NCBI GenBank assembly: GCA_951406725.2
Contig: OX597829.1
Location: 44,516,001 to 44,580,000 of the forward strand
DNA: 64,000 nucleotides
Source of the DNA: Octopus vulgaris
Taxonomy: Eukaryota
Direction of reading: 5' to 3'
The notes below the pieces were generated by a model that was not told the origin of the DNA, searched no databases, and was given only the letters and a program-made list of their open reading frames with translations. Shown here one piece after another: positions 17,508 through 41,864 of the stretch (positions are counted from its first letter, which is position 1; each line of letters starts with the position of its first letter). The translations under genes were made by a program, and so were the position numbers.

Positions 17508-17596
17508 TTTCATTCTACACGTGTTTCGAAAGGCACAAATTACCAAAATCCGATGGAATAATGGGACCATATTGTGTCTTTCTCTTCAGGAAGAAA
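17508..17596 (-). ncRNA. Type I hammerhead ribozyme, canonical core
   Basis: Minus strand: tttcttc CTGAAGA GAAAGACACAA..TTGTGCCTTTC GAAA CACGTG TA gaatgaaa. Stem II pairs 10/11, palindromic stem III ACACGTGT, GUA cleavage triplet. Confidence 0.8.
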
Positions 17597-17623
17597 ATAG
17601 GAAATCCGTTGGAAAAACAAAAA

Positions 17624-18512
17624 CAGGAGGTACGATCAATAAGTATCCGGACTGTGACCATAATAACAAAGCTAATGTACGCAGAGTAAAGCCACGGGGT
17701 ACAGATTGGTTTTGGACACTTGTGCGCATGCACACTAAGTTTTAACGTTCTACGCTAGTCTTGATGTTTACAGCAGTGTTTGAAAGGAATGTGTGTAGCG
17801 TGTGATCGTTGCATTGACCATGACAGAGAAAAGTGTCATGGTGATACCTACTCAGTGGCCTACGAAAAGTTGCAGAAAGTGTATGGAGAGGAGTATATAA
17901 GTCGCACGCAATTGCACGAGTGTTTCAGACGTTTCCAAGATGGCCGAAGAAATGTCGATAGTGACGAACGTTCTGCGAGACTCGCAACCAGCAGAACTGA
18001 GAAAGATATCGCAGATGTACATGCAGCCATGAGGAGAAATCGTCGAATCACCATCCGTGAGTTATCAGAGGATGTGCAGATTAGTTACGGTTCAGTTCAG
18101 TCCATTATCACTAAAGATTTGGGTATGAGACGCGTGTCTACCAAGTTTCTGCGAAAACTGCTTTCAGCAGAACAAAAGGACACACGGGTTTCAGTTGCAG
18201 AAGATCTCCATGATTGTGTCGGTAACGTTTTGAAATCCTTGCGTAGGCCCTTGACCAGGTATCACCAAGCCTTTGGCTAAATTTGACGCAGTTTCTCTGC
18301 TCAACTTTCTCTATCATGATCAATGCGACGATCACACGCTACACATCTTCCTTCCAAGCACTGCTGTGTACAGAGAAGGTGAGGCAGAACGTTAAAACTT
18401 AGTGCACATACAGAGCAGAATCCAATGTCAATTTGTGCCGCGCGACATTACTTTGCATATTTTTAGTTTCGTCACTATGGCAATAGTATGGATACTTATT
18501 GATCAGATTCTG
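17624..18512 (+). mobile_element. Mariner-derived fold-back element (5' part of the transposase plus an inverted second 5' end)
   Basis: TIR gatcaataagtatcc at both ends. ORF 17780-18280 contains mariner N-terminal HTH sequence (AYEKLQKVYGEEYISRTQLHECFRRFQDGR..RRITIRELSEDVQISYGSVQSIITKDLGMRRVSTKF). The minus strand at 18240-18335 encodes the N-terminus again (EQRNCVKFSQRLGDT). Confidence 0.88.
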
Positions 18513-18823
18513 TATATATATATATATATTTGTGTGTGTGTGTGTGTGTGTGTGTATGTGTGTGTATGTGTGTGTATGTATATGTATGTATATATATACT
18601 TATATATATATATGTCTCTGTGTGTATATATATATACAACCGATGCTGGTGTGTTTACATCCCCGTAGCACAGCGGTTCGGTACAGGAGACCGAAAGAGC
18701 AAAGAATAAGTCCTGGGATTGATTTGTTCGACTAGAGGCGCTGCTCCAGCATGACCGCAGTCAAATGACTGAAACAAGTAAAACAATATATATATATATA
18801 TATATATATATATATATATATAT

Positions 18824-19032
18824 AACGGGAAGCTTTACGAAAATAAACAAAAGACGAAGGCAGGTGGAATACAAACAAACAATTGTATTAGTATGGCGCT
18901 CAGGAATATAAATAAAACAAGTCTTTTACGTTTCGAGCCTACGCTCTTCAACAGAAAGATACACAGAAAAGAAACACAGAAAGAAGGAGAGAAAAAAATG
19001 CGTGCAGAGGCTAGCGAATCAACATGGCGTGC
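18824..19032 (-). mobile_element. Short (TA)n-embedded element with hammerhead motif (Penelope pLTR-like)
   Basis: Homologous to 45123-45349 and flanked by (TA)n on both sides. Confidence 0.7.
18922..18959 (-). ncRNA. Minimal type I hammerhead motif, A6U variant
   Basis: tcttt CTGTTGA a GAGC gtag GCTC GAAA CG TA aaaga. 5-bp stem I, 4-bp stem II, loopless palindromic ACGU stem III. Confidence 0.65.
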
Positions 19033-21411
19033 ATATATATATATATATATATATATATATATATATATATATATATATACACTCACACATACATACACAC
19101 ACACACACACGCACATATATAGAGGCTCATCATATTTAGGAAAAACTACTGTCCATACATGCCCTTCTAAATCGCAAATGTTCCCCTGTATATATATATA
19201 TATATATATATATATACCCAAACACATACACACACACATACATACACACATACATACATACAGCCACACAAACACGTGTGCGCGTGTATATGCACATATT
19301 AAAATCTACCTAACACAATTATACACAATGATAAGAGTTTCTATAGCTTTCGCTTTCGCTTTCCTATCCATCTTTGTTTTTTTTTTTACTATATGATTTT
19401 ATTTTTGCTTTTTAATATCTATTTTCAAACTTTTTTTTATTTTATTTTATTGTCTTATCTTATTTTATCTTATTTTATTTTATTTTATTTTATTTATTTT
19501 TTTTTTGTCTCTCTCTTGTTTGGCTGTTGTTGTTTATTGCAGAGAAAGCTGCTTGACAAATCTTCTTCGACTGAATAGATCTGGTACACATTCATGGTAG
19601 GATAGTTCCATCGACCAACTTGATTTGATTGTTGTCAGCTCCAACATGGCAGCAATAGCAGCAATCATTTGTTGTTGTTATTGTTGTTGTTTTTCTTGTT
19701 ATTGTTGTTCTTGTTGTTGTTGTTGTTGTTGCTACTGCTGCTGGTTTTCGTTGTTGGGGGTATTAGCTGTGGTGGTTTTGATGGGGGGGGGGTGGCGATT
19801 TCTGATGAAGATGGCTGCGATAAGAGTTGCTGTGCAAAATGATGATGCTGGTGGTTGTCGCAGTGGTGTTGGTCGTGGTTGTATTACTTCTAGGGGTAGG
19901 GGTGATTATCATTATCATTATTATTATTATCATTATTATTATTATTATTATTATTATTATAATTATTATTATTATTATTATTATTATTATTATTATTATT
20001 ATTATTATTATTATTATTATTATTATTATTATTAATATTATTATTATTATTATTATTATTATTGTTGTTGTTGTTATTATTATTATTATTATTACTATTA
20101 TTATTATTATTATTTTTATTATTATTATTATCATTATTATTATTATTATTATTATTATTATTATTATTATTATTATTATTATTATTATTATCATTGTTGT
20201 TGTTGTTGTTGTTACTAATGTTGCTGTTATATTAGTCGTAGCAGTGGCAGCAGCAGCAGTATTTGGAGGAGGAGGAGGAAGAGGAAGGATAGCGCTGTTG
20301 TTGTTGTTGTTGTTGTTGTTGTTGGTGGTGGTGGTGGTGGTGGTGGTGGTGGTGATGATAGGGATAATAGTGACGATGTGACGATGGCAAAAATAGTTAG
20401 GAGGAAGAAGAAGAACAAAAACTAGATGGGAGAGAAAAACAAGGAGGAAAGAAAAAAAAGAAAGAGAGTAAGCGCTGATACTGGTTGGAATGACGGTAAG
20501 GGTCATGTAAGGATATATATACATATATACACACATACATATATTTATATACACATATAAATATAAATATATACATATACATATACATATATATATATAT
20601 ATACATATACATATATATATACATACATATATATATGTATATATATATATATATATGTATATATATATGTATATATATATATATATATATATATATATAT
20701 ATATATATATATATATATATATATATATATATATATATATATATGTATATATATATATGTATATATATAAACGAAACCAGTTATGAACTGGTGGAGTGAC
20801 AAAAAAATATAAACAAATGAATTAGTGAAGGGGAAAAGAAAGAGCGAGAGACAGAGAAGGAAAGGAATGTGTATCGAGGGGAGCGGAAAATGTGATGTAA
20901 GAGAGATATCTGGTTTTTGTCATTGTTGTTGTTGTTGTTGGTGGTGGTGGTCGTGGCGGTGGTGATGATAGTGGTGGTAGTGGTGGTGGTGCTGCTGCTG
21001 CTCCATGTGTGCAGCATTGTAGTGTGGCTAACTGAACTGCATTATATCGATTTTGGCTAGGTTATGGATATCCGGAAGCACGTCAAAATCCCGACGTTAA
21101 AGCAACAGAATGGCGATACGATTGACATGGCCGCTGCCAAATGTAACACAATTTCGCTGAAGCGACTGAGTTGCCGAGCGTTCAATCTGATGACGTATGA
21201 CAGACTGTCATACAGCCTCAGATCTATGCTCGCCGTATGTATGTATGCGTCAGTGTGTGTGTGTGTGTGTGCGTGTGTGTGTGTGTGCGTGTGTGTGTGA
21301 GTGTGTGAGTGTGTGTGTGTGTGTGTGTATTTATGTACATATATATTTATGTATGCATTATACATATATATATATATATATATATATATATATATATATA
21401 TATATATATGT

Positions 21412-40300: not shown

Positions 40301-40691
40301 GTGGAGGTGCAATGGCCCAGTGGTTAGGGCAGTGGACTCACGGTCGTAGGATCGCGGTTTCGATTCCCAGACCGGGCGTTGTGAGTGTTTATTGAGCGAA
40401 AACACCTAAAGCTCCACGAGGCTCCGGCAGGGGATGGTGGTGATCCCTGCTGTACTCTTTCACCACAACTTTCTCTCACTCTTACTTCCTGTTTCTGTTG
40501 TACCTGTATTTCAAAGGGGCCGGCCTTGTCACTCTCTTGTGTCACGCTGAATATCCCCGAGAACTATGTTAAGGGTGCACGTGTCTGTGGAGTGCTCAGC
40601 CACTTACACGTTAATTTCACGAACAGGCTGTTCCGTTGATCGGATCAACCGGAACCCTCGTCGTTGTAACCGACGGAGTGCTTCCAACAAC
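40301..40691 (+). mobile_element. tRNA-derived SINE family B with 15-bp TSD
   Basis: tggcccagtggttaggg..ggtttcgattccc; actttacttgtagtg at 40289-40303 and 40690-40704. Confidence 0.92.
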
Positions 40692-41035
40692 TTTACTTGT
40701 AGTGAATATTCATGTAACAGATATCTGTTATGACAACCATTTACCTCCCTTGGATGTTTTAGTTTTTTTTTGTGTGTTTCTGCATGTGTGTCTTTGTGGG
40801 TAGACGTGTGCGTGTTTGTGTGTATATGTGCGTGCGTGTGCATGCGTGTGCGAGCGTGTGCGTGCGTGTCAGTGTGTATGAGTGTGCGCGCGAGTGTGTT
40901 TGCACGGGGAAGCAAAATAACTGCATAAAGCAAAATGACAAGGTGAGAAAAATGACACTCGATACAAGAAATGGAGTAAAATATACAATTCTATTGATGC
41001 TAAAAAGAAAATAATAATAAATAACTAAAAAAAAT

Positions 41036-41437
41036 GAGTGGCTGTGTGGTAAGTAGCTTGCTAACCAACCACATGGTTCCGGGTTCATTCCCACTGCGTG
41101 GCATCTTGGGCAAGTGTCTTCTGCTATAGCCCCGGGCCGACCAATGCCTTGTGAGTGGATTTGGTAGACGGAAACTGAAAGAAGCCTGTCGTATATATGT
41201 ATATATATATGTATATGTATGTGTGTGTGTGTTTGTCCCCCTAGCATTGCTTGACAACCGATGCTGGTGTGTTTACGTCCCCGTCACTTAGCGGTTCGGC
41301 AAAAGAGACCGATAGAATAAGTACTGGGCTTACAAAGAATAAGTCCCTGGGTCGAGTTGCTCGACTAAAGGCGGTGCTCCAGCATGGCCACAGTCAAATG
41401 ACTGAAACAAGTAAAAGAGTAAAAAAGAGTAAAAGAG
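41036..41437 (+). mobile_element. SINE family A
   Basis: Family A consensus; shares diagnostic changes (gcatcttgg, tgctatagccccggg, ccaatgcc) with 42765-43229. Confidence 0.9.
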
Positions 41438-41769
41438 AGATTACTAATAAAACTTTCACGTTTCCGATTTTCAGCGGGAAACACACGTTTGAAGCAAAAC
41501 AAAAATATTTCTAGATAACACTGCGTATCTTTCATTAGAGAAGGATTTGGATTCGAATGGTGAAGGATACTCAGGGCATCAAAAGTGTAAGAGGCTTATT
41601 TGATGAATCATGTATATATATATACATAGCTATGTATATATATATATATATATATATATATATATATATATATATATATTTATATTTGAGTAGTTGAATG
41701 AACTATCTTATTATGGATAATTCGAATTAACCGATACCTGGGTAGCAAATTTTGATGTTGACATAAGTT

Positions 41770-41864
41770 CCTTGCTTTTCCTGATGAGAAAGCGGCATAA
41801 TGTACTCCTCATTCCTTCGCAATTAGGAATATGCAGCCTTCGAAACATATGTCGAAAATAAAGG
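41770..41864 (+). ncRNA. Type I hammerhead ribozyme, canonical core
   Basis: ccttgcttttc CTGATGA GAAAGCGGCATA..TATGCAGCCTTC GAAA CATATG TC gaaaataaagg. Stem II pairs 10/12, palindromic stem III ACATATGT, GUC triplet (C17 = 41853). Confidence 0.85.

What the first reader, a model, noticed from the sequence alone, without database searches (positions are those of the whole stretch)
17508..41864. Two divergent copies of one canonical hammerhead family show covariation
Seen: 17508-17596 (minus) and 41770-41864 (plus) share downstream flank (aaataaa..gattt/gaattt..tgtt..cgttca(g/a)ctccatt). They have different but still paired long stem II helices (GAAAGACACAA/TTGTGCCTTTC vs GAAAGCGGCATA/TATGCAGCCTTC) and different palindromic stem III (ACACGTGT vs ACATATGT), with GUA vs GUC triplets. 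Inference: structure was under selection, and these are the best candidates for active ribozymes. An unusually long stem II insert may give tertiary contacts. The plus-strand copy could cleave any host pre-mRNA crossing it.
Basis: partly seen in the sequence, partly recalled or inferred. Interest (0 to 1): 0.72.

Follow-up and report, generated by a model that had tools for sequence, protein, structure and literature searches.

The report
Long-armed hammerheads of octopus retrotransposons
These two motifs are broken-off ends of two sister jumping genes (Penelope-like retrotransposons) among more than 6,000 similar copies in what is likely an octopus genome; each is a predicted self-cutting RNA with an unusually long arm that likely cuts only when two copies pair, serving the transposon rather than a host gene.

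Summary
Both motifs are real type I hammerhead sequences, with the predicted cuts at the stated positions. They are not two special old copies. Each is a 5'-truncated end of a young, high-copy Penelope-like retrotransposon: two sister subfamilies, Hydra-like, inserted in (TA)n, family A with a 3,624-bp unit and an 895-aa RT-endonuclease ORF. A tight pattern finds 6,143 relatives (2 in the control). Across 45 copies, basal helix II covaries at 6 of 11 pairs. Helix II spans 53-55 nt, against 11-24 nt in published Hydra elements. The stem III centre is almost always self-complementary: UG (wobble) occurs 1,071 times, CA 45, favouring paired (dimer) cleavage. A few insertions begin exactly at the predicted cut (7 against 2 and 3 at control sites; 4-5 against 0), but other hot spots are as strong, so this only hints at cleavage in vivo. 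Nothing supports host pre-mRNA cleavage or special activity of these two copies. The Penelope-hammerhead pairing is published, and this scan has already noted the long-armed variant 14 times on other DNA.

The parts
17446..17626 (-). Family A insertion: 5'-truncated pseudo-LTR fragment (unit positions 3295-3475, 'short' 3' end) running into (TA)n; no ORF and no inverted arm; its 5' end abuts a mariner remnant
   Evidence: 100% identical to the natural 3,624-bp unit from L061; context
17506..17599 (-). Type I hammerhead A: stem I 17599-17590 with 17515-17506, core CUGAAGA 17589-17583 and GAAA 17527-17524, predicted cut GUA| between 17516 and 17515
17528..17582 (-). 55-nt helix II of A: 11-bp basal helix (one A.C), asymmetric internal loop, inner hairpin on the conserved UxAUU motif
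17517..17524 (-). Self-complementary stem III ACACGUGU (self-duplex -10.3 kcal/mol), predicted dimer interface
41682..41751 (-). Family B insertion, inverted arm: the last 70 nt of the 'long' 3' end (+129 to +198 from the cut), next to (TA)n
   Evidence: 94% to natural copy L067
41749..41927 (+). Family B insertion, forward arm: -104 to about +74 from the cut ('short' end), holding the whole hammerhead
   Evidence: 97% to L067
41770..41864 (+). Type I hammerhead B: stem I 41770-41780 with 41854-41864, core CUGAUGA 41781-41787 and GAAA 41842-41845, predicted cut GUC| after 41853
41788..41841 (+). 54-nt helix II of B: 11-bp basal helix with two mismatches, inner hairpin
41845..41852 (+). Self-complementary stem III ACAUAUGU (self-duplex -7.0 kcal/mol), predicted dimer interface

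Best explanation
The two motifs are hammerhead sequences in the end repeats of two sister Penelope-like retrotransposon subfamilies, left here as truncated copies, and they likely cut the element's own RNA only as a pair joined through their palindromic stem III. Shown: element identity, tandem 3,624-bp units, the position of the predicted cut 267 nt upstream of the next unit's ATG, two fixed 3' ends (about +60-70 and +219 nt from the cut in A), and family-level covariation. Inferred: in a read-through tandem transcript two hammerheads one unit apart form a double hammerhead and release a unit-length RNA that may be ligated into a circle. Reverse transcription then starts at the long and the short site from the two ends of a cut (TA)n target. 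Most copies read through the cut position (uncut or ligated template), and well under 1% stop at it. The long helix II is likely a structural or protein-binding handle of the element RNA and not part of a canonical loop 2-stem I contact. The two window copies are likely passive relics.
For: Full elements with an 895-aa ORF (YRDD, DKT, C-terminal YVG endonuclease with CxxC and CxH) in tandem 3,624-bp units; Atlas neighbours at 0.96-0.98 include GIY-YIG clusters; motifs match Hydra-1_Obim by eye. 6,143 pattern matches against 2 control. Helix IIa: 6 of 11 pairs with two-sided change; whole structure 87% paired against 35-47% when slid. Stem III centre UG 1,071 against CA 45; the CA hits are scattered single copies, whereas UG needs at least 5 changes on a 75-row tree. 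Double-hammerhead energy -43.9 and -46.0 against -28.8 and -34.2 kcal/mol for two monomer hammerheads. 66 of 73 inverted family A insertions join one long and one short end; none is long-long or short-short. Arms starting exactly at the cut: A 7 of 11 insertions against 2 and 3 at two control positions; B 4-5 of 24 hits against 0 of 6.
Against: No cleavage assay and no raw RNA reads. The cut-site excess is small (combined P 0.015-0.027, post hoc, three control positions), and among 88 arm ends of short inverted insertions, 3413 (12) and 3390 (9) are as frequent as 3404-3407 (12). The UG excess could partly come from A-to-G bias on the RNA strand. Two of five covariation measures (pairs with a two-sided change, further pair types) did not exceed the shuffles. 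In the anole element PAc, hammerhead mutants still inserted in vitro and no RNA reads ended at the cut (PMC11167929). Published metazoan PLE hammerheads cleave poorly even as dimers (PMC4209133). The Hydra CxCx5C linker is absent.
Confidence: 0.75

Rival explanations
1. The motif is kept mainly as a folded recognition site for the element's RT-endonuclease; cleavage is negligible in vivo, and arm ends near the cut are reverse-transcriptase stalls at helices.
For: Junction hot spots track helices and palindromes (3413, 3390, 3367). Nearly all copies read through the cut. PAc hammerhead cleavage was protein-assisted and dispensable in vitro (PMC11167929). Invariant distal bases (CA/UG, UxAUU) look like a binding site.
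Against: The catalytic core and cleavable GUC/GUA triplets are kept across all subfamilies sampled (the core was partly fixed by my pattern). In B no arm starts one base upstream of the cut (0 of 6) while 4-5 start at it. UG against CA asymmetry.
Confidence: 0.15
2. The long helix II supplies a new tertiary contact that lets a single copy cleave as a monomer, so lone copies such as site B could cut host transcripts.
For: Mismatches cluster at pairs 4-8 of helix IIa (43 of 45 copies have at least one mismatch in the helix), near where stem I could dock. Monomer hammerhead folds lie only 1.5 and 3.9 kcal/mol above the minimum.
Against: The mismatch position differs between subfamilies. Monomer stem III is 2 bp with a 4-nt loop. 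A self-complementary centre is not needed for a monomer, yet it is kept. No host transcript was found at site B.
Confidence: 0.08
3. The two loci are individually conserved, host-domesticated ribozymes.
For: None beyond intact cores.
Against: Site A is 100% and site B 97-100% identical to many dispersed copies; both are truncated stubs in microsatellites.
Confidence: 0.02

Closest known systems
Hydra-clade Penelope-like elements and their hammerheads, including Hydra-1_Obim of Octopus bimaculoides (PMC8557442; passages, section 11, supplement parts 1-2 and search hits seen)
   Same: C-terminal GIY-YIG-type endonuclease, DKT, CxxC and CxH around E and N, (TA)n targets, type I hammerhead near the 3' end with short stem III, inverted 5' arm, tail at one end only.
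   Different: Helix II domain 53-55 nt in two parts, against 11-24 nt in the File S2 Hydra rows; unit 3.6 kb with an Asn/Ser-rich linker, against under 3 kb; CxCx5C linker eroded; tail about 125-150 nt, against 30-40; the Hydra-1_Obim hammerhead is a different, short-armed one.
Minimal and palindromic-stem-III hammerheads of metazoan PLEs (PMC4209133, parts 1-2 of 4 read; review PMC6765202, passages; Lunse et al. 2017 known only through that review)
   Same: Type I topology, palindromic stem III, proposed dimer cleavage and circular template.
   Different: Published helix II is 6-8 bp with a small loop; here it is 11 bp plus an internal loop plus a second hairpin. A family-wide wobble-against-mismatch count for the dimer interface was not found in the passages read.
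PAc (Poseidon) of Anolis carolinensis (PMC11167929, parts 1-2 of 4 read)
   Same: Two fixed internal reverse-transcription start sites defining the tail, downstream of the hammerhead; AT-rich targets; both strands extended.
   Different: PAc's hammerhead overlaps the ORF start and its start sites lie in the ORF; here the cut and both sites lie upstream of the ATG.

Membership tests
Type I hammerhead ribozyme | Core CUGAnGA / GAAA / UH joined by stems I, II, III, open at stem I | tested here: met
Type I hammerhead ribozyme | Rfam RF00163 gathering score (34 bits) | tested here: not met
   14.8 and 25.5 bits; the alignments show core and stems matched and 50-51 nt set against a 10-nt model loop
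Type I hammerhead ribozyme | Site-specific self-cleavage | not testable with these tools
   Only indirect genomic hints
Type I hammerhead ribozyme | Loop 2 - stem I tertiary contact of fast hammerheads | not testable with these tools
   The distal loop lies beyond 11 bp of helix IIa; no contact identified
Dimer-cleaving PLE hammerheads | Short palindromic stem III | tested here: met
   ACACGUGU and ACAUAUGU; UG 1,071 against CA 45; energies
EN+ Penelope-like elements | Single ORF with RT and GIY-YIG endonuclease | tested here: met
   895-aa ORF with YRDD and VYQC...YVG; Atlas GIY-YIG clusters; Pfam gave no hit
EN+ Penelope-like elements | Tandem units or pseudo-LTRs, inverted 5'-truncated arm, tail at one end | tested here: met
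Hydra clade of PLEs | DKT in place of DKG; RWK motif | tested here: met
   DKT at residue 122; RW present as RWL, not RWK
Hydra clade of PLEs | No CCHH; CxxC and CxH flanking the conserved E and N | tested here: met
   CNLC at 855, CPH at 883
Hydra clade of PLEs | CxCx5C linker motif | tested here: not met
   A keeps one Cys (GCRSRNEY, against GCSCRIRNEC in Hydra-1_Obim); B has none. Filed as Hydra-like, not as a firm member.
Hydra clade of PLEs | Insertion into (TA)n | tested here: met
Hydra clade of PLEs | Placement in an RT phylogeny | not tested
   The published proteins were compared by eye only
Non-LTR retrozymes | Short non-coding tandem units, each with a hammerhead | tested here: not met
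   The tandem unit is 3,624 bp and coding

The most novel reading that the evidence does not exclude
Octopus Hydra-like retrotransposons carry a structurally new class of hammerhead whose two-part 55-nt arm is the docking site of the element's own protein. Their thousands of genomic copies record both obligate dimer cleavage (wobble kept, mismatch purged) and cleavage in the germ line (arms that begin exactly at the cut), which would settle what the ribozyme does in Penelope transposition.
Probability: 0.25. Interest if true: 0.75.

Novelty: new variant of a known kind. Interest (0 to 1): 0.42.

Why it matters
The role of hammerheads in Penelope-like elements is stated to be unclear (PMC8557442), and cleavage was not seen in RNA data for PAc (PMC11167929). 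A young family with intact tandem copies, natural UA/UG/CG palindrome variants and natural compensatory changes makes dimer cleavage and the role of the long arm directly testable. Long-armed hammerheads fall under the Rfam threshold, so thousands are missed in such genomes. The two window copies themselves are unremarkable.

Tried and rejected
Rfam scan of the whole window: the 150 listed of 321 matches were microsatellite-driven and held no hammerhead; local scans gave sub-threshold matches. Pfam and PDB sequence searches gave nothing for the 895-aa ORF. One search used a structure shifted by one column (my error) and is superseded. RNAalifold recovered only 9 pairs of helix IIa; the inner hairpin is poorly aligned in families with indels, so its covariation (1 of 7 pairs) is not established. 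No RNA holder was listed and only assembled contigs were served. Contigs of three runs guessed to be RNA cover most of the family A unit, one across the tandem junction, but they cannot show ends, strand or editing. The unique flank near site B (about 42314-42745) had next to no cover in three such runs, which is no proof of silence. A-to-I editing at the A.C mismatches could not be tested. Pairing of the stem II bulge with the downstream CUCCAUU motif works for families A and C but not E or F (by eye), and was dropped. My first reading as a strong cleavage footprint was lowered after the controls. Lunse et al. 2017 is not held. Searches listed no paper on long-helix-II hammerheads in cephalopods; the main text of the 2026 Octopus vulgaris repeat paper (PMC13282606, passages) has no 'hammerhead' or 'ribozyme'. 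Its supplements, and those of PMC4209133, were not seen and may hold such motifs.
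Full report
Observation. Both motifs are in the sequence as stated. A type I descriptor finds exactly these two in the window, and so does a covariance model built from 45 family members (the two are in its training set). The predicted cuts are between 17516 and 17515 (GUA, minus) and after 41853 (GUC, plus). The downstream flanks align better than all 2,000 shuffles (35 against a maximum of 29); the helix II inserts alone align weakly (33 of 2,000 shuffles as high). 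Rfam Hammerhead_1 matches both below threshold, with the 50-51-nt insert set against a 10-nt loop.

What they belong to. Each site is a young repeat. The searches gave 1,344 and 1,774 first-look candidates, 40 scored each; the best A copies are 100% identical and the best B copies 97-100%. Larger loci show family A as 3,624-bp head-to-tail units with an 895-aa ORF (ATG at unit position 49, stop at 2736, hammerhead core at 3332, cut after 3405). Family B is a sister: 75% amino-acid identity over the first 314 residues, 49% over the C-terminal part, and 71% nucleotide identity over 1.9 kb. The protein has YRDD, DKT, RW(L), a C-terminal VYQC...YVG endonuclease, CxxC and CxH. Pfam and PDB searches gave nothing; the Atlas returned clusters at 0.96-0.98, several with GIY-YIG. 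These features and the (TA)n targets match the Hydra clade (PMC8557442 section 11), and the N-terminal half resembles Hydra-1_Obim by eye. The CxCx5C linker is eroded, so I call the elements Hydra-like. The octopus label is my inference from that resemblance, the 2.8-Gb genome and a SINE recalled from memory. The window copies are stubs: A covers unit 3295-3475 and abuts a mariner remnant; B is a 70-nt inverted long end joined to a 179-nt forward arm.

Family and covariation. The pattern TCCTGANGAG-N40-65-CGAAACANNTGT has 6,143 matches against 2 for the reversed control. A second pattern that excludes this stem III finds 901 more against 4, in several other long-armed families with mostly palindromic stem III. 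I aligned 45 of 71 distinct stretches, chosen to cover subfamilies. With the hammerhead structure, 87% of cells pair, against 35-47% when slid. Six of 11 pairs of basal helix II change on both sides, and the share of cells paired, the cells with a two-sided change and the covariation score exceed all 500 shuffles. The two measures that count pairs or types do not, and relatedness inflates the shuffle test. Stems I and III hardly vary, and the pattern fixed part of them. 43 of 45 copies have at least one mismatch in this helix, mostly at pairs 4-8, while CA/UG at pairs 9-10 and a UxAUU motif in the inner hairpin are invariant. The two window copies fold weakly for their family (z -1.7). The published Hydra rows have 11-24 nt between the core boxes (File S2); here there are 53-55.

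Dimer. In a monomer the two central bases of stem III sit in a loop; in a double hammerhead they pair between copies. By hand count 98 of the first 100 matches listed have CG, UA or UG there. Genome-wide, UG (two wobbles, -6.0 kcal/mol) occurs 1,071 times and CA (two mismatches, -1.2) 45 times, although each is one transition away from both UA and CG. The 45 CA hits are scattered over all subfamilies, whereas UG marks whole subfamilies and needs 7 changes (at least 5 forced) on a 75-row tree with those bases masked (four loci were fetched because they carry UG, and no CA copy was in the tree). Computed double hammerheads are 12-15 kcal/mol better than two monomer hammerheads and 4-12 better than two free minimum-energy monomers. 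A strand-biased A-to-G process is an alternative source of some of the UG excess. Dimer cleavage of PLE hammerheads is an established idea (PMC4209133; PMC6765202; PMC3088659 Fig. S8 legend).

Insertion anatomy. Copies end in (TA)n at two fixed places, about +60-70 and +219 nt from the cut in A (+58-74 and +198 in B). Of 73 inverted family A insertions, 66 join one long and one short end; 7 have one odd end; none is long-long or short-short (the set comes from my searches, not a random draw). This is the known tail at one end (PMC8557442 Fig. 2), and it fits two internal start sites as in PAc (PMC11167929). Most arms run through the cut position, and some exceed one unit, so the usual template is uncut, or ligated and circular.

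Footprint of cleavage. In family A, 12 hits with a non-A base before the cut came from 11 insertions: 7 with an arm starting at 3406 (2 of them with a 3-nt overlap that blurs the start, and 4 with both arms within 2 nt), 3 point changes and 1 deletion. Controls gave 2 truncations in 4 hits at 3410 and 3 in 14 at 3403. In family B, 4 clear and 1 ambiguous of 24 hits start at the cut, against 0 of 6 one base upstream. The combined P is 0.015-0.027, post hoc. Against this, among 88 arm ends of 44 short inverted insertions, 12 fall at 3404-3407 but 12 at 3413, 9 at 3390 and 5 at 3367 (four insertions are shared with the first set). This is a hint of a minor route, not proof.

Host effect. The two copies are on opposite strands, their palindromes pair poorly with each other, and I found no host transcript over site B. 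Cleavage of host pre-mRNA by this copy is unsupported.

Verdict. This is a known pairing (Penelope-like element plus type I hammerhead) in a new structural variant: a long two-part helix II, not found in the papers listed. This scan has already noted the variant 14 times in at least 3 genomes, and cut-site starts with mixed results elsewhere; I reached my reading before those look-ups. The wobble-against-mismatch count is the main addition here. Interest 0.42.

Noticed in passing
G000 genome-wide; L123-L154: Several further long-helix-II hammerhead families with mostly palindromic stem III (GUAC, GGCC, CUAG, GCGC, UCGA centres): 901 matches against 4 control. Some pairs lie 583-602 bp apart as partial duplications; few had recognisable ORF remnants nearby.
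   Followed up: partly
L063:2147-4831 (minus); L067:3234-4634: The Hydra CxCx5C linker zinc finger is eroded (one Cys in A, none in B) and an Asn/Ser-rich stretch is inserted, yet (TA)n targeting persists, which weakens the proposed link between that finger and microsatellite targeting.
   Followed up: partly
L243-L254: 9 of 14 hits of one control search share a 2-nt GT deletion in family A stem III, a recurrent slip that shortens the palindrome.
   Followed up: no
L145 about 3060-3115 (plus): A short-armed type I hammerhead motif with the same ACAUAUGU palindrome as family B, seen in the printout.
   Followed up: no
window 17627-18515: Mariner remnant (HTH_48 match) with inverted-repeat-like ends; the family A stub joins at its left end.
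   Followed up: partly
window 46638-46931 (minus): Decayed endonuclease end of another Hydra-like element (32% to the family A protein, E 5e-8), with no hammerhead found by the family model.
   Followed up: partly
L062:4420-6360: An inverted pair of a different PLE (weak GIY-YIG match; Neptune-like by recall) sits directly beside the family A tandem array.
   Followed up: no
window 17475-17490 and 41880-41895: A CGUUCRRCUCCAUU-type motif is conserved in all subfamilies just upstream of the short 3' end; it is a candidate signal for reverse-transcription initiation.
   Followed up: no
window 33097-33513 and 61406-63600: ORF fragments that look like non-LTR retrotransposon remnants (restriction-like endonuclease; zinc knuckle plus AP endonuclease). 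The labels are recalled; Pfam gave no hit.
   Followed up: no
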